Positions 2,443 to 15,047 of a DNA stretch of 21,851 bases are shown here, one piece after another. The notes beneath the pieces are model-generated. The model was given only the letters and a program-made list of their open reading frames with translations. It ran no database searches and was not told where the DNA came from. The stretch lies in IMG/VR virus record IMGVR_UViG_2547132277_000002; one strand, written 5' to 3'. Within the stretch, counting starts at the first letter, position 1; each line of letters begins with the position of its first letter. Source of the stretch: a virus. Its lineage: Duplodnaviria; Heunggongvirae; Uroviricota; Caudoviricetes. The translations under genes and the position numbers were made by a program.

Positions 2443-2517
<75 letters not shown>

Positions 2518-2520
2518 ATA

Positions 2521-2596
<76 letters not shown>

Positions 2597-2598
2597 AC

Positions 2599-2675
2599 TG
2601 GACCGCCACCGGGGACTCGAACCTCGCACACTCAACTTAAAGAGTTGACGCTCTTTCCTGATGAGCTAGTGGCGG
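2599..2675 (-). tRNA. tRNA of uncertain identity (manual fold gives anticodon UUU, Lys-like, with atypical C at position 33)
   Basis: 77 nt, CCA encoded; acceptor CCGCCAC/GTGGCGG (C1-G72), D-arm GCTC-ATCAGGAAA-GAGC, anticodon stem TCAAC/GTTGA, loop UCUUUAA, T-loop TTCGAGT. Needs tRNAscan-SE. Confidence 0.5.
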
Positions 2676-2676
2676 T

Positions 2677-2752
2677 TGGTGGCCCTTGCTGGATTTGAAC
2701 CAGCGACCTGGCGATTATGAGTCGCTCGCTCTCACCACTGAGCTAAAGGGCC
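2677..2752 (-). tRNA. tRNA with CAU anticodon, ileX/ileZ-like (tRNA-Ile2; elongator Met not excluded)
   Basis: 76 nt, CCA encoded; GGCCCTTTAGCTCAGTGGTGAGAGC...CTCATAA...GGTTCAAATCC...AAGGGCCACCA closely resembles E. coli tRNA-Ile2 as recalled; anticodon loop CUCAUAA. Confidence 0.7.
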
Positions 2753-2984: not shown

Positions 2985-3896
2985 GTGGCTATTTCTCTTG
3001 CGCAAAGGATGCTTTTGATGACGCAGCAACTCGAAAACATGCCAATAACAGAAATCGAAATTGCCTACGGTGGAGAGGCATACGCAGATAATCAGATCGA
3101 CGCGAAAACATTAGGCGAAGCCTTAACCTCTCTTAGTGCCCTGATTGAACACGCCGAAAAAATAATTAATGGCGAAACAGCAGAGCCGAAAGTCAACATC
3201 AAGGCAACAAAAGAAGGTTCATTTACTTTGCTTGTTGCTGTGATGGGGAGCATAAAAACTATTAACGCCCTTGGCCTCGTTGCAGGTGGTGGAGTTGCCG
3301 CAGGTGGCGTACTCGGGATAATCGAATGGCTCAAAGGGCGTAAAATCAGCTCCATTGTCGTCGATGAACAAAAAGATACAGCAGAAATCGAAGTGGATGG
3401 TGAGAAGGTTAAATGCAGTAACGACATTCAAAAATTAATAACCAGTCCAATCATCCGAAAAGAACTGGATAAATTAATCTATAAACCCCTGCAGACTGAA
3501 AAACCATCCACGTTCTCAGTTTCACAGCAGAAGCATAAGGTAGTCAGGGTGACGCAAGCTGAAGCAGTAAGTTTTAAAACTGCAAAATCCACCTTTGTCG
3601 AGAAAACGCACGTAACGACACGCCAAGCTAATGTACATTTTGCTAATGTTCGATTCAAGCAAGGCAAAAGCTGGGATATCATCCTGCCAAATGGCGAAGA
3701 AGTTAGCGCATCTATGAAAGATGAGGCTTTTCTTGAACGGGTTGAACACAACCAAGCAGCATTCTGTAAGGGTGATCTTTTTGTTGTAGAACTGACAGAA
3801 ACAACAAAAGAAACAAATGGCGCGCTGTCTAAACCACGCTATAGTATTACTAAGGTTATACGCCACAGAGCGGCGGCAGATAGGAAACTACTTTAA
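2985..3896 (+). CDS. Cargo gene A: unknown protein with a central Gly-rich hydrophobic segment (probable start ATG 3018, 292 aa)
   Basis: ORF-track start 2985 is GTG; ATG at 3018 has AAGGA 8 nt upstream. Hydrophobic stretch FTLLVAVMGSIKTINALGLVAGGGVAAGGVLGIIEWL; no motif I can assign. Opposite strand to every flanking phage gene. Confidence 0.6.
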   Translation: MAISLAQRMLLMTQQLENMPITEIEIAYGGEAYADNQIDAKTLGEALTSLSALIEHAEKIINGETAEPKVNIKATKEGSFTLLVAVMGSIKTINALGLVAGGGVAAGGVLGIIEWLKGRKISSIVVDEQKDTAEIEVDGEKVKCSNDIQKLITSPIIRKELDKLIYKPLQTEKPSTFSVSQQKHKVVRVTQAEAVSFKTAKSTFVEKTHVTTRQANVHFANVRFKQGKSWDIILPNGEEVSASMKDEAFLERVEHNQAAFCKGDLFVVELTETTKETNGALSKPRYSITKVIRHRAAADRKLL

Positions 3897-6694: not shown

Positions 6695-7816
6695 CTAGTG
6701 AATTTTGCCTCTAAGAGTTCGGTAAGATTGTAGTGAAACAACATCACCACTTCCTGGCAGTTCATGAACCGCAGGAAGATCATCTCCTACTAACTCATAA
6801 AAAATGTCCACTTCTATATCCATTTCATCAGCTATACGCTGTGGGTCGTATCCTAACTCTTCAAATAAAAACGATAAAGCCCGACGGAATAACTCAGGAC
6901 GCTCATGAGGGATTAGATAATCTTCTTTTTCATCAATAGCTTCCCCTTTCCGTTTCAACCCCATAAATGCAGTTCTGTACTGCTCATCAGTCAAAAGTCC
7001 TAATTGATGAGCCCTGTAAACAATGGCAGCCTTACTTACTTTCCATGTCAACTTAAATTGGCTTAGTCCCTGCCAATTTATCCTCCCCCCCACAGGTCTT
7101 GGAAAATATTTCGCCATCGACGTTCTGGGAAGCAACAGAGCAGAGGCAAAACGGTTTGCCTGGGATTCAGTTAATCTATCCCCAGTAGAAATTCCTTCAT
7201 GAAGAATCAAATGGGCAACCTCATGAGCAATATCAAAGCGTTGCCTACAAGGTGAATTTTTAGCTGTATTTCGAACAATAAAAGGCCTTCGTAGAGGAAC
7301 AGACAGTGCATCTACTTCATCCGAAACGGAGTCAAATGAAGTAACAAACGCCCCAAGTTTCTCGGCAAGGCGAGTCATATTTTCAATTGGGCCAAAGCCT
7401 AAGCCCCACTCAATACGACATTTTTCTGCCGCTCGCTCGATATCTTCTTGTGTATGGACACGAAATTCAGGAAATCGAACAGGTGACAAATTAAGGTTAT
7501 CTTCAAATACATCAATAAAACGACGATAAAACTCAGCCTTAGCGAGTGTTGATAGCTTCGTTGACATCCTTGTCGAGGCGCGTTTACGAAAATGTACAAT
7601 CTCTTCATTAACAGGAGAATGTTCCTGCCCTTCGAAAAAGGCGGGCTTCACGCGCAAAACCTCGGCTAATTTATTTATAAGCTCTGGGGATGGAGTAGCT
7701 GAACCAGACTCCAGTCGCTGTACATACTGGCGTGTTTTTTCAACCTTCTCAGCAACCTGCTCCAGAGATAGCTCGTGATACAGACGAGCAAGTCTTAAAT
7801 TAGTACCGTTAAACAC
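6695..7816 (-). CDS. Fused XRE-family HTH regulator / ImmA-IrrE (COG2856) zinc metallopeptidase
   Basis: 373 aa; N-terminal HTH LRLARLYHELSLEQVAEKVEKTRQYVQRLESG; HEXXH zinc motif in DIAHEVAHLILHEG; GTG start 11 nt after the upstream gene stop. Confidence 0.8.
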   Translation of the reverse strand: MFNGTNLRLARLYHELSLEQVAEKVEKTRQYVQRLESGSATPSPELINKLAEVLRVKPAFFEGQEHSPVNEEIVHFRKRASTRMSTKLSTLAKAEFYRRFIDVFEDNLNLSPVRFPEFRVHTQEDIERAAEKCRIEWGLGFGPIENMTRLAEKLGAFVTSFDSVSDEVDALSVPLRRPFIVRNTAKNSPCRQRFDIAHEVAHLILHEGISTGDRLTESQANRFASALLLPRTSMAKYFPRPVGGRINWQGLSQFKLTWKVSKAAIVYRAHQLGLLTDEQYRTAFMGLKRKGEAIDEKEDYLIPHERPELFRRALSFLFEELGYDPQRIADEMDIEVDIFYELVGDDLPAVHELPGSGDVVSLQSYRTLRGKIH

Positions 7817-7826
7817 ATTTCACCCA

Positions 7827-8420
7827 CTATTTGCTATTTTGTTTCTTTTCCTTCTCAGTCTTAGACGCACTGATAGGTTCTAGTTCGATAGGTACCGGTG
7901 CTGGAGGTACATCATCGACAGAGTTCAGCATAACAACACGGTCCGCACCATATGTCCAAGTTGACACGATCTCACCAAACACGTTATAGCCATTAAAAAT
8001 GACTCTACCACCCTCGCCTTCAAATTCAGGCTTTTCAACCACAAAGCGATGCATAGTTGGAGTAGTCTCCTCTGACTCAAAGAGTCGATCAGCATCATTT
8101 CTTTTGAAAAAACCGCGTTTCTTGGGGTTATCTGCGTCATCAGTAAAGAAACGAATAGGGACATTCCCAATTGAAAACGTAAGATCCATGCCAGGATTAA
8201 GTAGTCTTAACCAGTCATATGTCTTTCGTACGCACATTTGTAGCAACGCCTGCCGCTGACGCCCAAATGTACAACCACCACGAGTGTAATTATCATCATA
8301 GGGCGATGACAATAACTCATGAGTAATATCCTGTATCCTGAGCAACTCCTCAGCTATAATGGTTAAACGCACCTCTGTTAACTCAGGAAAGAACTCCCAA
8401 GGGAATGGATGGTTCTGCAT
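7827..8420 (-). CDS. Unknown protein, first gene of the two-gene cassette (197 aa from ATG 8420; ORF track extends to 8468)
   Basis: ATG at 8420 has GGAG 8 nt upstream; the longer start would overlap promoter-like TTGACA boxes. No recognisable domain. Confidence 0.55.
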   Translation of the reverse strand: MQNHPFPWEFFPELTEVRLTIIAEELLRIQDITHELLSSPYDDNYTRGGCTFGRQRQALLQMCVRKTYDWLRLLNPGMDLTFSIGNVPIRFFTDDADNPKKRGFFKRNDADRLFESEETTPTMHRFVVEKPEFEGEGGRVIFNGYNVFGEIVSTWTYGADRVVMLNSVDDVPPAPVPIELEPISASKTEKEKKQNSK

Positions 8421-8499: not shown

Positions 8500-8523
8500 A
8501 AAAAAAAACCCCGCCGAAGCGGG
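8500..8523 (-). terminator. Rho-independent terminator upstream of the two-gene cassette (downstream of the ParA-like gene)
   Basis: CCCGC-CGAA-GCGGG stem at 8510-8523; on the minus strand followed by T9 (plus A-run 8500-8508). Hairpin nearly identical to the one at 6673-6690. Confidence 0.65.
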
Positions 8524-8870
8524 TTAAGTGCGGGTGCGTTGAGGATGCCTGACACATCAGAGGTGGCGAGGGATTTCTCCCTCGCCTGGTCTCTTACTCC
8601 TCAGGTTCGTAAGCTGTGAAGACAGCGACCTCCGTCTGGCCGGTTCGGATTCGTACCTCGCAGAGGTCTTTCCTCGTTATCAGTACCGCAACAATTTCGT
8701 ATTCATGATTCATTTCATCTAAAACAGTTCATAAACCTAAATAAATTCAAAAAATCACAACACAAATAAATATAAATTATCTCATCCTGAAGAACGATAG
8801 GATTATTTAGAATTAATAACAATTAATGTAACAATAATTATCAATCCAGATTATTCAAATAAAATGTCAT

Positions 8871-9917
8871 TTACCATATGGAGTTGTGAATGAACTTTAA
8901 TTCATTTTTTATTTTGTTAACAGATAAATTCACGGATGTCCTAACTCTATTCACAGTCATTGCATCTCCTGGATTTAACAACTCTAATGGTTTAGACTTA
9001 GCACTTGACATTCTGCCACTACCCAGAAAATCATCAAGAATCACAATGTGATTATTAGGATCATCTGTTGTAAAATTACTAATATTTTGTCGAATTACCT
9101 CTCTTACAGCTTCGATGTACATTTTTGTCTGTTGATTTGGTTTATTCCTTGCTCCTGCCACTGTTGACCATCCGCAATGGGTAATAACCACCATCTGAAT
9201 TTTTGGTGTATGGCCATCAGACGGCATTATCTTTCTAAATTCTGATGTTGGTTTAGTCAGAGTATCAATAAGTAATCTTAATGAATTAATCGATTGCTGA
9301 TCTGTCCTCACTGGAACTATTAAAGCATCTGTTGCATGCCAAGATAAATGCGTCGCTCCAGAGAAAAAAGGTGATGTATCAATTAACGCTTTTGTAGTAC
9401 CAGTTTCAACCATTTCTCTGGCTATTTCTTTCTTCAGAGAAAAAAGAATTGTATCAATAACAACCTGCTGAGTAGCCCCAGAAATTGTTCTGGCTTGAGC
9501 CAGAGCATTCGCCATTTGCGTAGGTAGAAGATAAAGTTGACTATCAGATTGAATAAAATAGTTATTCTTGCCCGCAAACCAAGCATTAGTTGATGATACT
9601 AGCTTTGCAGCACGCGTTGCAAATCCAAGCCCTGGAACAAAATAAGGCATTAAGAGGTCATTTGCAGTTGTGCTAGACGAAGATGCATAATTATTGTCAA
9701 AAAAATATGATAAATTTCCTTGCGGGCACGTATCCACGATTAATGCGTTATCCGCCAAATATGACAGATTAAAAGTTAAAGATGTCTTACCAATGCCTCC
9801 CCGTAAATTACATACTGTATATTTATCATATTTCGGCAAATTAAGACTTCTTACATTACCGTCAGCAACTTCGAATTGACGCTCTATCAGAGCATTAACA
9901 TTTGATTCACTAGTCAT
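8871..9917 (-). CDS. ParA/MinD-family (SIMIBI) P-loop ATPase-like protein, standalone, AT-rich
   Basis: 348 aa; deviant Walker A NLRGGIGKTS (Arg at the signature-Lys position), IVDTCPQGN (ParA DxDPQ-type motif), ALIDTSP Walker-B-like; sampled lines ~34% GC versus ~50-55% in the phage backbone. Confidence 0.65.
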   Translation of the reverse strand: MTSESNVNALIERQFEVADGNVRSLNLPKYDKYTVCNLRGGIGKTSLTFNLSYLADNALIVDTCPQGNLSYFFDNNYASSSSTTANDLLMPYFVPGLGFATRAAKLVSSTNAWFAGKNNYFIQSDSQLYLLPTQMANALAQARTISGATQQVVIDTILFSLKKEIAREMVETGTTKALIDTSPFFSGATHLSWHATDALIVPVRTDQQSINSLRLLIDTLTKPTSEFRKIMPSDGHTPKIQMVVITHCGWSTVAGARNKPNQQTKMYIEAVREVIRQNISNFTTDDPNNHIVILDDFLGSGRMSSAKSKPLELLNPGDAMTVNRVRTSVNLSVNKIKNELKFIHNSIW

Positions 9918-9947
9918 ATCGCCACCATTAGTTTTACACTTTTATTG

Positions 9948-9976
9948 ATGATATGGAAAACTAACCTAGTTGTCAA
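9948..9976 (-). promoter_or_regulatory. Near-consensus sigma70 promoter for the ParA-like gene
   Basis: Minus-strand -35 TTGACA (plus 9971-9976), exact 17-bp spacer, -10 TATCAT (plus 9948-9953), ~30 bp upstream of the ATG at 9917. Confidence 0.55.
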
Positions 9977-10401
9977 CAATGGATTAAAAAACAAACACAC
10001 AAGCGTTTATCAAAAGCACCTTGATTGGTGATACTACCGTGTCTTTCAGCCAAACAGTTCAGTATGTAAAGCGAATCCAACATCAATTAAGAACGTTTTC
10101 AGCGCTCCCCCAGTTGTCTAGATGTCAAACTTCATGCGCTCTCCTGTCGAAATAAACGTACTGATTAATCATGCCCAAGGACATTTCGCGTTTTACAGCG
10201 ATATCACGGCGGGGAACTCCACACTGATGAAGCTTCCGCACTAGCTCAATATCGCTTTGCGGATGTTTTTTTGATTGGTTATAACCCCCCCTCTTAACAT
10301 CCTATTGATACCCAGTTCCTGCGCTTTCGCTCTGACAGCATAACTAGAACGATCAATCAACCCTCCTATGCTTTCGGCCGTCAACGCGTCTACACAATTG
10401 C

Positions 10402-10897: not shown

Positions 10898-11968
10898 TTA
10901 CCCCCTGAAGCCCGGCGGAATTTCGTTATCCGGTTCAGAAATATGATTCACACAACGCTGGTTGTTCGTGCCGCTTACCGGGAGCAACCAGGGGTTCTCA
11001 AAATTCCGGTCCGGTCCAAAAAACGTCGTCGCTCGCTGAACAAATTCCGTTCCCGTTTTCCCGGTAGCCGCCAAGTATCTTGCGTAACGCCTCACGCCAT
11101 CCAGCATGGCCTCTGGTGGCACCCCCTCGCGTAATCTGGCCTTCCAGGCACTGAAAGCGGATTTCTTCGGGTTTGCCCCGGCACGCAACGGGTATTCCCG
11201 CCAGACCTGTTCGAACACATCAGGATAATCCACTCGTCCCACAGGCTGCCCGGTGTTTTCCGGGACTACCCGATCGGCTTCCCGCTGAATGGCGGAATCG
11301 GCTTCAGGCTGCTGAAGTTGGTGTGATTGCTCCTGCCTTGCGGTCATCACCTGCTGCACAGCGCCCGAATCGGCTTTCAGCGCATACGCTGAATCGGCTT
11401 CCGGTGTCGTGCCTGCGGGCTGGCCAGGAGTGACGGTCTGAACATCCCCTGCCTGGTTCGTGGCGTTTTTTACGCCATGGACCATAGTGTTTTGATCTTC
11501 TTGATCTGTATCTTTATCTGTATCTTTATCTGTCGTGACTCGTCGTGACATGTGCGTGACATTTCGTGACTCGCCGTGACAATCGCCATTTTGTTCCCGC
11601 TTTCTTTCCCTCTCTCGCTGCGCCCTCTTGCGCTCTGCCGGAGATTTTGCGGTTTGCGAAATATTGCCGTTGTCCTCTTTCAGCACCTGGCGTTTTTCCC
11701 ATCCAGTGATTAAATCACCATCAAGTACCCGCCCCTGCATCGTCTGCAAAATTGAATCAATTACCTCTTCTGTCACGTCGAGCGCACTTGCCAAATCTTC
11801 TGTCGTGACATCAATGTGACCTCGCGTGACATTTCGTGACGCGCTCACCAGGAGGTGGATATACACTGCCATCACTGTTGCAATTGGCTGCCCTGACACC
11901 CTGGCAATTGTTCGCCACTTAGGGTCATTTGGCATGTCATGCCATAATCTGAGCCAGGCGTTAGCCAT
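10898..11968 (-). CDS. Replication initiation protein (lambda O-like organiser N-terminus, DnaT-like C-terminus) with internal iterons
   Basis: Probable start ATG 11968 (SD GAGG 5 nt upstream; ORF-track GTG at 11974); acidic DKDTDKDTD linker; C-terminal YPLRAGANPKKSAFSAWKARL recalled as DnaT-like; position after the cII-like gene. Confidence 0.65.
   Translation of the reverse strand: MANAWLRLWHDMPNDPKWRTIARVSGQPIATVMAVYIHLLVSASRNVTRGHIDVTTEDLASALDVTEEVIDSILQTMQGRVLDGDLITGWEKRQVLKEDNGNISQTAKSPAERKRAQRERERKREQNGDCHGESRNVTHMSRRVTTDKDTDKDTDQEDQNTMVHGVKNATNQAGDVQTVTPGQPAGTTPEADSAYALKADSGAVQQVMTARQEQSHQLQQPEADSAIQREADRVVPENTGQPVGRVDYPDVFEQVWREYPLRAGANPKKSAFSAWKARLREGVPPEAMLDGVRRYARYLAATGKTGTEFVQRATTFFGPDRNFENPWLLPVSGTNNQRCVNHISEPDNEIPPGFRG
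11509..11532. repeat. 12-bp tandem direct repeat TATCTTTATCTG x2 (encodes DKDT repeats on minus strand)
   Basis: Exact duplication at 11509-11520 and 11521-11532, immediately adjacent to the iteron array. Confidence 0.7.
11534..11580. repeat. Iteron array: five CGTGAC repeats at 10-11 bp spacing (candidate replication origin)
   Basis: CGTGAC at 11534, 11544, 11555, 11565, 11575 (plus strand), inside the replication gene as in lambda ori. Confidence 0.55.
11773..11840. repeat. Second cluster of CGTGAC / GTCACG motifs
   Basis: GTCACG at 11773; CGTGAC at 11804, 11825, 11835; degenerate TGTGAC at 11815; 10-11 bp spacing. Confidence 0.4.
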
Positions 11969-14654: not shown

Positions 14655-15047
14655 TTCACCCTCCTGAGGGTTGGTAATTAAGGAGTTCTCCACGGGTCAG
14701 GTGGAGTGCGTGCGCCGGACACGGGTGAGCATCCGGCACTGGCAGTTTACTGGAAGGATATATCCCTGAAAAGTCAGGACATAACGCGAAAGCGCACGGC
14801 GAAGTTATTCTGTCTGTACGGTGTCGTTAAATTTAATTCGACCGTGCGCTTCCGGTTGTGGCAATCCGCGAAATGGCGCGGCGGTAAGTATGGCGGGGTT
14901 ATTCCTTCCCCGTTGAGGACACCGGGTTGTCAGGTTGACCATACGCTTAAGTGACAACCCCGCTGCAACGCCCTCTGTTATCAATTTTCTGGTGGCGTTT
15001 AGCGGTATCAGTTTTACTCCGTGACTGCTCTGCCGCCCTTTTTAAAG

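What the first reader, a model, noticed from the sequence alone, without database searches (positions are those of the whole stretch)
8690..9976. AT-rich island carrying a standalone ParA/MinD-like ATPase with an Arg-substituted deviant Walker A and a near-consensus promoter
The 8871-9917 gene and its flanks are ~34% GC in a ~50-55% GC phage backbone. It has a TTGACA-17bp-TATCAT promoter and is followed by a strong terminator, so it is a self-contained moron. The protein has ParA-type motifs (RGGIGKTS, DTCPQGN) but Arg replaces the signature Lys, and there is no parB or centromere-like partner. A lone ParA-like ATPase in a prophage nin region is not a standard phage function.
Basis: partly seen in the sequence, partly recalled or inferred. 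Interest (0 to 1): 0.6.

Follow-up and report, generated by a model that had tools for sequence, protein, structure and literature searches.

The report
Solo ParA-like ATPase cassette with operator
An intact, strongly conserved ParA-type ATPase gene sits alone in a prophage defence slot as a 1.1-kb cassette that carries its own promoter and a conserved palindromic DNA site; it has no partner protein, has spread across more than ten bacterial phyla, and its function is unknown.

Summary

New findings:
- The conserved unit runs exactly from the -35 box to the stop codon (9975..8869), with dN/dS 0.02 against the Enterobacter copy.
- The promoter carries inverted boxes TTAGTTTTCC/GTAAAACTAA 27 bp apart. 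38 of 77 non-redundant loci from many phyla show this exact spacing.
- A 35%-identical sister subfamily has arrays of 4-7 CGACCTGCA boxes at an exact 19-bp period instead.
- No conserved neighbouring gene exists. Some relatives are integron cassettes.
- In the window the gene lies next to a RosmerTA defence system. Near-identical copies lie next to Bunzi, or next to a cI repressor.

It is not a classical partition system. The "strong terminator" belongs to a truncated hokD gene 348 nt downstream.

Best reading: a self-repressing, ATP-locked, DNA-binding dimer that serves as a mobile accessory gene, probably in phage or plasmid conflict. The architecture is well supported. The function is inferred. 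No paper on this family was found.

The parts
8869..9975 (-). Conserved mobile unit: promoter, operator, ribosome-binding site and ORF
   Evidence: Nucleotide similarity (83.6%) to the Enterobacter copy spans exactly window 9975..8869, from the -35 box to 2 nt past the stop. The flanks are unrelated. The Lachnospiraceae copies have the same limits.
9971..9976 (-). -35 hexamer TTGACA
   Evidence: A near-consensus promoter is conserved across family loci.
9948..9953 (-). -10 hexamer TATCAT (17-bp spacer)
   Evidence: 11/12 match.
9955..9964 (-). Left operator box TTAGTTTTCC, inside the promoter spacer and abutting the -10
   Evidence: one of only two exact matches in the 21.8-kb window. Conserved in 47 other loci.
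9928..9937 (-). Right operator box GTAAAACTAA, inverted, 27 bp start-to-start from the left box, just 5' of the SD
   Evidence: Spacing is exactly 27 bp in 38 of 77 loci, against 11 of 1540 shuffled controls.
9922..9926 (-). Shine-Dalgarno-like GGTGG, 4 nt before the ATG
   Evidence: Read from the sequence. The position matches GGAGG in the homologous cassettes.
8871..9917 (-). ORF, 348 aa, ParA/MinD-fold NTPase of a distinct compact clade
   Evidence: dN/dS 0.02.
9780..9803 (-). Deviant Walker A, RGGIGKTS (R39 in place of the signature Lys; K44 and T45 kept)
   Evidence: invariant in 30 of 30. Aligned to KGGVGKT of Soj.
9714..9734 (-). Switch I / Walker A', DTCPQGN (C64 in place of the catalytic Asp)
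   Evidence: Alignment to Soj DLDPQGN and to the D44A form DLAPQGN. C64 is invariant. BcsQ precedent: PMC7840130.
9369..9386 (-). Walker B region LIDTSP (D180 invariant)
8696..8868 (.). Very AT-rich spacer (21.7% GC) between the stop codon and the hokD remnant. Not conserved with other copies.
8594..8695 (-). hokD remnant lacking its N-terminus. Marks the left edge of the inserted DNA.
   Evidence: RefSeq pseudogene. The translation matches only the Hok C-terminus. Homology to hokD loci stops at about 8688-8695.
8500..8523 (-). Intrinsic terminator (CCCGC-TTCG-GCGGG plus T9) of the hokD locus. May end the cassette's transcript.
   Evidence: Lies in DNA shared with hokD loci.

Best explanation
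Window 9976..8869(-) is a complete single-gene cassette. It consists of a near-consensus sigma-70 promoter, two inverted 10-bp boxes (TTAGTTTTCC and GTAAAACTAA, 27 bp apart) that bracket the -10 and the start site, an SD, and a 348-aa ParA/MinD-fold NTPase.

Shown:
- The fold.
- The retained nucleotide-binding residues K44, T45, D62 and D180.
- The invariant replacements R39 (signature Lys) and C64 (catalytic Asp).
- The exact limits of the cassette, and strong purifying selection.
- The absence of any conserved partner gene.
- The conservation and fixed spacing of the boxes.
- Spread across many phyla, including as integron cassettes.
- Placement beside defence systems or the cI repressor in prophages.

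Inferred:
1. As in BcsQ, the R/C pair makes a long-lived ATP-bound sandwich dimer with very slow hydrolysis.
2. That dimer itself reads the boxes and represses its own strong promoter, keeping its level low and constant in the lysogen.
3. The dimer's useful activity is an accessory, conflict-type function: exclusion or defence against incoming phage or plasmid DNA, or control of the element that carries it. It would act through DNA or another target common to all bacteria, because the gene works alone in more than ten phyla.

It is not a ParABS partition ATPase.
For: Fold and active site:
- BcsQ, with R10 and C39, forms a stable ATP sandwich dimer with weak ATPase activity (PMC7840130).

Cassette and selection:
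- Cassette limits and dN/dS 0.028/1.40. The same limits hold in Lachnospiraceae.

Boxes:
- Both arms lie within 220 nt upstream in 41 of 78 loci, against 1 of 73 and 3 of 76 in control regions.
- Spacing is exactly 27 bp in 38 of 77 loci and 48-49 bp in 7. The two arms change in parallel (L039, L062, L068, L041).
- The left arm lies upstream of the predicted start site in E. coli, and overlaps or precedes the -35 in other Proteobacteria. The common denominator is therefore DNA, not RNA.
- The sister subfamily has different boxes, CGACCTGCA x4-7 at an exact 19-bp period over its promoter.

No partner:
-.

Mobility:
- 96 species genomes in more than 10 phyla at 50% identity or above.
- Gene GC is below flank GC in most loci.
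- attC-flanked copies exist.

Context:
- RosmerTA lies next to the gene in the window. Bunzi lies next to 94-95% identical copies.
- A cI-type repressor is adjacent in L111 and in about 17 of 21 sister-subfamily prophage loci.
- The slot between DUF977 and hokD carries varied cargo in other E. coli prophages.
Against: - No experiment exists. No PADLOC or NCBIfam model fits, and no paper was found.
- Outside Enterobacteria the neighbours are ordinary housekeeping genes. Only about 3 of 113 are defence-related, which is near background. Only 3 candidate systems appear among 139 neighbour clusters in other viral loci.
- The protein is unusually conserved for a defence gene: 55-65% identity between phyla.
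- It has no effector domain.
- Pfam and the AlphaFold model show no recognisable sequence-specific DNA-binding domain, only an extra N-terminal helix and a C-terminal beta-hairpin plus helix.
- Subfamily-specific residues are scattered.
- The family is rare in sequenced phages (1 of 50,697) and plasmids (5 of 72,556).
- Binding of the boxes by the protein is inferred only from co-inheritance.
Confidence: 0.45

Rival explanations
1. Partition interference or anti-plasmid gene. The orphan ParA-like protein disturbs the ParA/ParB cycle of incoming plasmids or phage-plasmids, for example by occupying the nucleoid or forming mixed dimers, and so destabilises them. ParI of Pseudomonas putida does this to IncP-7 plasmids.
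For: - ParI gives a precedent for an island-borne orphan ParA with this activity (Miyakoshi 2012, as cited in PMC9044938).
- The gene sits in prophage and island accessory slots.
- A fragment of a phage-plasmid gene lies just upstream.
Against: - The protein is only marginally similar to plasmid ParAs (E about 1e-3 to Soj by sequence), so mixed dimers are unlikely.
- One conserved protein found in more than 10 phyla cannot be tuned to one plasmid family.
- It coexists with normal parA/parG pairs on Aeromonas and Yersinia plasmids.
Confidence: 0.12
2. A ParB-less, one-protein partition or positioning module. The upstream boxes act as the centromere, and the ATPase binds both the boxes and the nucleoid, positioning the DNA that carries it.
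For: - The cis boxes are always linked to the gene.
- The sister subfamily has centromere-like arrays of 4-7 direct repeats at a 19-bp period.
- L078 has three direct repeats 21 bp apart.
- The closest folds are partition ATPases.
Against: - Most copies are in chromosomes between housekeeping genes, where partition is not needed.
- The few plasmids that carry it also have a normal par system.
- The window has only two boxes.
- The R39 and C64 changes argue against the fast ATP cycling that partition needs.
- Integron-cassette copies have no boxes at all.
Confidence: 0.1
3. A pure regulator or silencer. The ATP-bound dimer is a DNA-binding repressor or nucleoid-associated protein that controls genes of the carrier element or host, for example by reinforcing lysogeny. 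It has no role in conflict with other elements.
For: - The boxes overlap the promoter.
- The sister subfamily and L111 sit beside the cI repressor.
- In Gifsy-1, an unrelated orphan ParA operon in the immunity region lowers phage yield 2-4 fold and affects host Rtc expression (PMC9879122).
Against: - Exact boxes occur nowhere else in the 21.8-kb window.
- The cassette functions in unrelated genomes with no common neighbouring genes to regulate.
Confidence: 0.15
4. The inverted repeat is not read by the ATPase. It is an RNA hairpin in the 5' UTR, or a site for a host factor, and the gene is simply a constitutively expressed moron.
For: - In Lachnospiraceae both arms lie downstream of the -10 and could be transcribed.
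- The arms co-vary, as a hairpin would require.
Against: - In the window the left arm lies between the -35 and the -10, so it is not in the transcript. In other Proteobacteria it overlaps or precedes the -35.
- The predicted RNA fold of the window's leader does not use the arms, and its z-score is only -1.45.
- The spacing comes in two sharp classes, 27 and 48-49 bp. The sister subfamily uses direct repeats, which cannot form a hairpin.
- A host factor common to more than 10 phyla is unlikely.
- No Rfam family matches.
Confidence: 0.12
5. A decaying, non-functional remnant of a partition operon that lost its parB.
For: The neighbouring hokD and a small DNA-binding gene are degraded.
Against: - The ORF is full length.
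- dN/dS is 0.02 over dS 1.4.
- About 100 residues are invariant across phyla.
- The same solitary arrangement appears in all 80 genome loci examined.
Confidence: 0.02

Closest known systems
BcsQ (SIMIBI ATPase of the enterobacterial cellulose secretion system)
   Different: The cis Lys (K44) is kept here; BcsQ has Thr. There is no bcs operon and no BcsR partner. The NCBIfam score of 31 is far below the cutoff of 158. The protein is about 100 aa longer and has upstream DNA boxes.
Type Ia ParA (P1/P7 ParA, F SopA)
   Different: No winged-HTH domain was detected. There is no parB downstream and no parS. The signature Lys and catalytic Asp are replaced.
McdA (carboxysome-positioning ATPase) and chromosomal or plasmid type Ib ParA/Soj
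   Different: McdA and Soj keep the catalytic Asp and always work with an adjacent adaptor (McdB, ParB). No adaptor is linked here in 80 genome loci or 42 viral loci.
ParI, orphan ParA of a Pseudomonas putida KT2440 genomic island
   Same: A partner-less ParA-family gene on a horizontally acquired island with an effect on foreign replicons (citation seen).
   Different: ParI acts on a related plasmid ParA system, whereas this clade is far from plasmid ParAs.
Gifsy-1 STM14_3218 (orphan ParA-like gene in a lambdoid prophage)
   Same: A ParB-less ParA-like gene in a variable prophage region. Deletion of its region raises phage yield 2-4 fold (PMC9879122).
   Different: It is 279 aa and the first gene of a three-gene unit (STM14_3218-3220). 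The gene here is 348 aa and solitary.

Membership tests
ParA/MinD (SIMIBI) NTPase superfamily | Characteristic P-loop alpha/beta fold | tested here: met
ParA/MinD (SIMIBI) NTPase superfamily | P-loop GK[ST], Mg/switch I Asp and Walker B Asp | tested here: met
   G43, K44, T45, D62 and D180 are invariant in the core family. G43, K44, D62 and D180 also stay invariant in the wider alignment.
ParA/MinD (SIMIBI) NTPase superfamily | Signature (trans-acting) Lys of the deviant Walker A, KGGxxK[ST] | tested here: not met
   R39 in 30 of 30 core members.
ParA/MinD (SIMIBI) NTPase superfamily | Catalytic water-activating Asp in switch I (Soj D44) | tested here: not met
   C64 aligns to that position and is invariant.
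ParABS-type partition system | Adjacent centromere-binding adaptor gene (ParB, ParG, ParR or similar) | tested here: not met
   None in the window. No conserved neighbour in 80 genome loci and 42 viral loci. The conserved DNA ends at the stop codon.
ParABS-type partition system | Centromere made of repeated sites near the operon | tested here: inconclusive
   The window has only two inverted boxes and no array. The sister subfamily has 4-7 boxes at a 19-bp period.
ParABS-type partition system | Carried on a replicon that needs active partition | tested here: not met
   Integrated prophage here. Mostly chromosomal elsewhere. Plasmids that carry it have a separate par system.
Type Ia ParA | N-terminal winged-HTH DNA-binding domain | tested here: not met
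   No HTH family hit. The model shows a single helix (residues 4-18) before strand 1.
Type Ia ParA | Inverted-repeat operator overlapping its own promoter | tested here: met
   Binding itself was not tested.
BcsQ family | Curated family score and bcs operon context with BcsR | tested here: not met
   TIGR03371 scores 31 bits against a cutoff of 158. There are no bcs genes.
Known anti-phage defence systems (PADLOC-DB v2) | Match to a defence protein model | tested here: not met
   Only weak local hits to PRTase and ShosT models (E 1e-4 to 2e-3). The fold contradicts them.
Known anti-phage defence systems (PADLOC-DB v2) | Recurrent placement beside defence genes | tested here: inconclusive
   Met in enterobacterial prophages (RosmerTA, Bunzi, Mrr-like). 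Not met in other phyla.
Integron gene cassette | Promoterless ORF bounded by GTTRRRY core sites with an attC downstream | tested here: not met
   Not met for the window copy, which has its own promoter. Met for relatives L085 and L086: GTTAGC upstream and GCTAAC...GTTAC attC downstream.
MinD | C-terminal amphipathic membrane-targeting helix and MinC/MinE partners | not tested
   The C-terminal helix 332-347 is amphipathic and ends in an invariant Trp, but it is modelled with high confidence as part of the fold. Membrane binding cannot be tested with these tools.

The most novel reading that the evidence does not exclude
This is the founding example of a ParB-less class of 'one-protein, one-site' ParA modules. 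The ATP-locked ATPase itself reads cognate DNA boxes, TTAGTTTTAC pairs in one subfamily and 19-bp-periodic CGACCTGCA arrays in another. The 1.1-kb module travels between phyla, and through integrons and prophage defence slots, as a new single-gene system for excluding or controlling foreign DNA.
Probability: 0.3. Interest if true: 0.8.

Novelty: new variant of a known kind. Interest (0 to 1): 0.62.

Why it matters
ParA/MinD ATPases are understood as two-part machines: the ATPase plus an adaptor that links it to cargo and triggers hydrolysis. A clade that works alone would extend that picture, and this one has several features that point that way. It carries its own cognate DNA sites. It has the BcsQ-like R/C active site. 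It has been kept almost unchanged while moving between more than ten phyla. It also turns up next to RosmerTA, Bunzi and prophage repressors, which offers a small new candidate for a conflict or defence gene. The cassette is only 1.1 kb and has clear, cheap tests: gel shift on a 60-bp fragment, a reporter fusion, ATPase point mutants, and phage and plasmid challenge. For annotation, it shows that 'ParA family protein' in prophages should not be read as partition.

Tried and rejected
- **PRTase or ShosT-like C-terminal domain.** The weak PADLOC and Pfam hits at residues 262-311 are rejected. The whole chain has the ParA fold, and the segment aligns with the ParA C-terminal region.
- **A hidden partner gene.** BLAST clustering of all ORFs within 4 kb in 80 loci, nearest-neighbour lists, a Pfam scan of 113 upstream neighbours and clustering in 42 viral loci found none.
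- **Loss of the N-terminal helix in the integron-type subgroup.** My own idea. It is wrong: the helix is present and tblastn simply did not align it.
- **A localised DNA-reading segment.** Residues conserved within but different between the two subfamilies are scattered and not informative.
- **RNA element.** No Rfam hit. The leader's predicted fold does not use the repeat.
- **Identity with Gifsy-1 STM14_3218.** Rejected on size and operon structure.
- **Plasmid partition role.** Rejected because the plasmids that carry the gene have separate par systems.
- **Literature.** Seven searches, including the RefSeq accession, found no paper on this family.
- **Context of a distant relative.** The look-up for P0127 returned only a 1.6-kb contig.
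Full report
**What is at the coordinates**

The window is a Qin/Rac-like lambdoid prophage integrated next to potC. Thirteen of 5,426 complete E. coli genomes, several of them ETEC by strain name, carry DNA at least 99% identical to this segment.

ORF 8871-9917 on the minus strand encodes 348 aa. Interval 8690-9976 is 34.2% GC, against 48.1% for the rest of the window.

TTGACA-17-TATCAT lies at 9976..9948, an 11/12 match. The only terminator-like site on that strand is at 8523..8510, which is 348 nt beyond the stop. It follows a hokD pseudogene that has lost its N-terminus (8594-8695). It also sits in DNA shared with thousands of hokD loci. It is the hok terminator, not part of the island.

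Homology to other prophages breaks at about 8695 and resumes at about 10462. In other E. coli prophages the same slot, between DUF977 and hokD, carries QueH, methyltransferases, DUF4406, hydrolases and other cargo. Positions 10125-10384 hold a frameshifted small DNA-binding gene that is 87% identical to genes of about 90-kb phage-plasmids.

**The protein**

- Family scans: Pfam AAA_31 scores 8e-10 and PHROG 164 "ParA-like" scores 3e-30. No NCBIfam model comes near its cutoff. The best is BcsQ, at 31 bits against a cutoff of 158.
- Active site: K44, T45, D62 and D180 are retained. R39 replaces the signature Lys. C64 replaces the catalytic Asp, which corresponds to D44 in Soj. Both replacements are invariant in the core family and are kept in the 35%-identical sister subfamily.
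- Precedent: BcsQ has the same two replacements (R10, C39). It crystallises as an ATP-bound sandwich dimer with only weak ATPase activity (PMC7840130).

**The family**

About 700 clusters at 90% identity match. In a library clustered at 50% identity only 179 sequences match at E up to 1e-3, and 30 at 1e-30. This is a compact clade, well separated from ordinary ParAs.

Members at 50-67% identity occur in 96 of 185,579 species genomes. They span:
- Gamma-, Beta-, Alpha- and Zetaproteobacteria;
- Desulfovibrionaceae;
- many Lachnospiraceae, plus Selenomonas, Clostridium and Paenibacillus;
- Cyanobacteria, Synergistaceae, Planctomycetes, Bdellovibrionales, Bacteroidetes, Leptospira and Chloroflexi.

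About 100 residues are invariant. The gene's GC content is below that of its flanks in most loci.

Against the 96%-identical Enterobacter protein, dN/dS is 0.028/1.40 = 0.02. Nucleotide similarity runs exactly from 9975, the -35 box, to 8869, just past the stop. Lachnospiraceae copies have the same limits. The mobile, selected unit is therefore promoter plus gene, about 1.1 kb.

**No partner**

- Clustering of all ORFs within 4 kb in 80 loci found no shared neighbour.
- The nearest genes differ in size and strand.
- Pfam shows them to be ordinary genes such as ribosomal protein S2, EF-Ts, aconitase, amylase and transporters.
- The window has no ParB-like gene and no tandem array near the gene.
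- On Aeromonas and Yersinia plasmids the gene coexists with a normal par pair.
- It is rare in sequenced phages (one distant relative) and in plasmids (5 of 72,556).

**A conserved cis element**

Upstream regions share an inverted repeat, TTAGTTTT(A/C)C ... G(T/G)AAAACTAA.

- Both arms lie within 220 nt upstream in 41 of 78 loci. The control regions give 1 of 73 and 3 of 76.
- The start-to-start spacing is exactly 27 bp in 38 of 77 loci and 48-49 bp in 7. Shuffled controls give 11 of 1540 at 27 bp.
- In the window the boxes are 9964..9955 and 9937..9928. These are the only exact matches in 21.8 kb.
- The Enterobacter copy has perfect 13-bp arms.
- The arms change in parallel in variant loci (L039, L062, L068, L041).
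- The right box always sits just before the SD. The position of the left box varies. In Lachnospiraceae it lies just after the -10. In E. coli it lies inside the promoter spacer. In other Proteobacteria it lies on or before the -35. It is therefore often not transcribed.
- The leader's predicted RNA fold does not use the arms, and its z-score is -1.45. Rfam finds nothing there.
- A near-consensus promoter accompanies the boxes: at least 10/12 in 39 of 77 loci, and a perfect 12/12 in 17.

The 34-36% identical sister subfamily comprises about 21 prophage loci plus Ralstonia phage RsoM1USA. It has quite different boxes: 4-7 direct repeats of (C/G)GACCTGCA at an exact 19-bp period across its promoter. 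Of the 74 spacings, 57 equal 19 bp.

The ATPase is the only gene that travels with these sites, and each subfamily has its own sites. The simplest reading is that the protein binds them and represses itself. This is an inference. No binding was tested, and no classical DNA-binding domain is visible.

**Mobility routes**

A Vibrionaceae/Alteromonadaceae subgroup lacks the promoter and boxes. It is bounded by GTTAGC upstream and by a GCTAAC...GTTAC attC site downstream, so it consists of integron cassettes.

In Enterobacter the gene lies at the edge of integrative islands beside cbtA/cbeA. In Burkholderia it lies beside parE/paaA2. In Desulfovibrio it lies among small genes that include hicA.

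**Context in prophages**

- In the window, the next genes after the hokD remnant are a RosmerTA defence system. RmrT is at 7827-8420 (E 7e-92) and RmrA at 6695-7816 (E 4e-201).
- IMG/VR holds 42 loci. Copies 94-95% identical sit beside a Bunzi system (BnzA and BnzB, E about 1e-206). In L111 the copy sits directly downstream of an S24-type cI repressor and next to an Mrr-like nuclease.
- The sister subfamily is adjacent to the cI-type repressor in about 17 of 21 loci. In lambda, that place is occupied by rexAB.
- Elsewhere the association is weak. About 3 of 113 chromosomal neighbours, and 3 candidate systems among 139 viral neighbour clusters, match PADLOC.

**Interpretation**

Shown:
- an intact ParA-fold NTPase under strong purifying selection, with R/C active-site changes;
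- a solitary 1.1-kb cassette with a strong promoter and conserved, precisely spaced boxes;
- spread across phyla, including as integron cassettes;
- placement in prophage accessory, defence and immunity slots.

Inferred:
- an ATP-locked dimer, by analogy with BcsQ;
- self-repression through the boxes, by analogy with type Ia ParA;
- a conflict-type accessory function, from context.

It does not meet the defining features of a ParABS system. There is no adaptor, no array in the window, and no replicon that needs partition. I give the composite explanation 0.45. The architectural part alone deserves about 0.65, and the defence or exclusion part about 0.35-0.4.

The rivals are partition interference like ParI, a one-protein partition module, a pure regulator or silencer, boxes that the ATPase does not read, and a decaying remnant. 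They are weighed in the rival-explanation entries.

**Novelty**

RefSeq already calls the product "ParA family protein". No paper or family model describing this clade, its cassette structure or its boxes was found. I rate it a new variant of a known kind.

Noticed in passing
window 6695-8420 (-): A complete RosmerTA anti-phage system lies directly after the hokD remnant. RmrT is at 7827-8420 (PADLOC E 7e-92) and RmrA at 6695-7816 (E 4e-201; HTH_3 plus Peptidase_M78). RefSeq annotates them only as 'hypothetical' and 'helix-turn-helix domain-containing'.
   Followed up: partly
window 2985-3896 (+): A 303-aa ORF on the opposite strand, between the Q antiterminator and the tRNA cluster, matches the PADLOC candidate system PDC-S42 (E 3e-53). 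It lies in a low-GC stretch.
   Followed up: no
window 8594-8713 (-) and 8500-8523: hokD is truncated at its N-terminus exactly where the AT-rich DNA begins, but its terminator is intact. The insertion removed the toxin's membrane segment and the upstream mok/sok region.
   Followed up: partly
window 10125-10384 (-): Two short ORFs (47 and 38 aa) are the halves of a frameshifted 95-aa DNA-binding protein gene. It is about 87% identical to genes of about 90-kb E. coli phage-plasmids.
   Followed up: partly
L123-L143 (IMG/VR) and L094 (Ralstonia phage RsoM1USA), upstream of the ParA-like gene: The sister subfamily (34-36% identity) is preceded by 4-7 direct repeats of (C/G)GACCTGCA at an exact 19-bp period overlapping the promoter. 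It usually sits beside the prophage cI-type repressor. In RsoM1USA the CCTGCA boxes are packed more tightly and the gene lies next to attP and the integrase.
   Followed up: partly
L085, L086, L084 (Vibrio, Parendozoicomonas, Pseudoteredinibacter): Relatives at about 51% identity are promoterless integron cassettes, with GTTAGC before the ORF and a GCTAAC...GTTAC attC after it.
   Followed up: partly
L078 (Bdellovibrionales MAG), upstream of the gene: Three direct repeats of CTAGTTTTCT, 21 bp apart, take the place of the usual inverted pair.
   Followed up: no
L108-L110, L112, L121 (IMG/VR prophages): A 94-95% identical copy of the cassette lies next to a Bunzi defence system (BnzA 550 aa, BnzB 496 aa). 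This is a different prophage slot and the opposite orientation relative to the nin-type genes.
   Followed up: partly
L096, L097 9546-9977: In Enterobacter a 143-aa ORF with no Pfam or PADLOC match follows the cassette at about 500 bp in two different island contexts. It is absent from the window.
   Followed up: no
window 11499-11581: Short tandem repeats (TCTTTATCTGTA x3 and GTCGTGACAC x5) lie inside the 358-aa gene next to DUF977. They look like the origin iterons of a lambda O-type replication gene, although that gene has no Pfam hit.
   Followed up: no
window 14987-15038 (+) and 2446-2752 (-): The DicF sRNA (Rfam 68.6 bits) and a cluster of four tRNA genes are present. These are ordinary Qin-type prophage features.
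   Followed up: no
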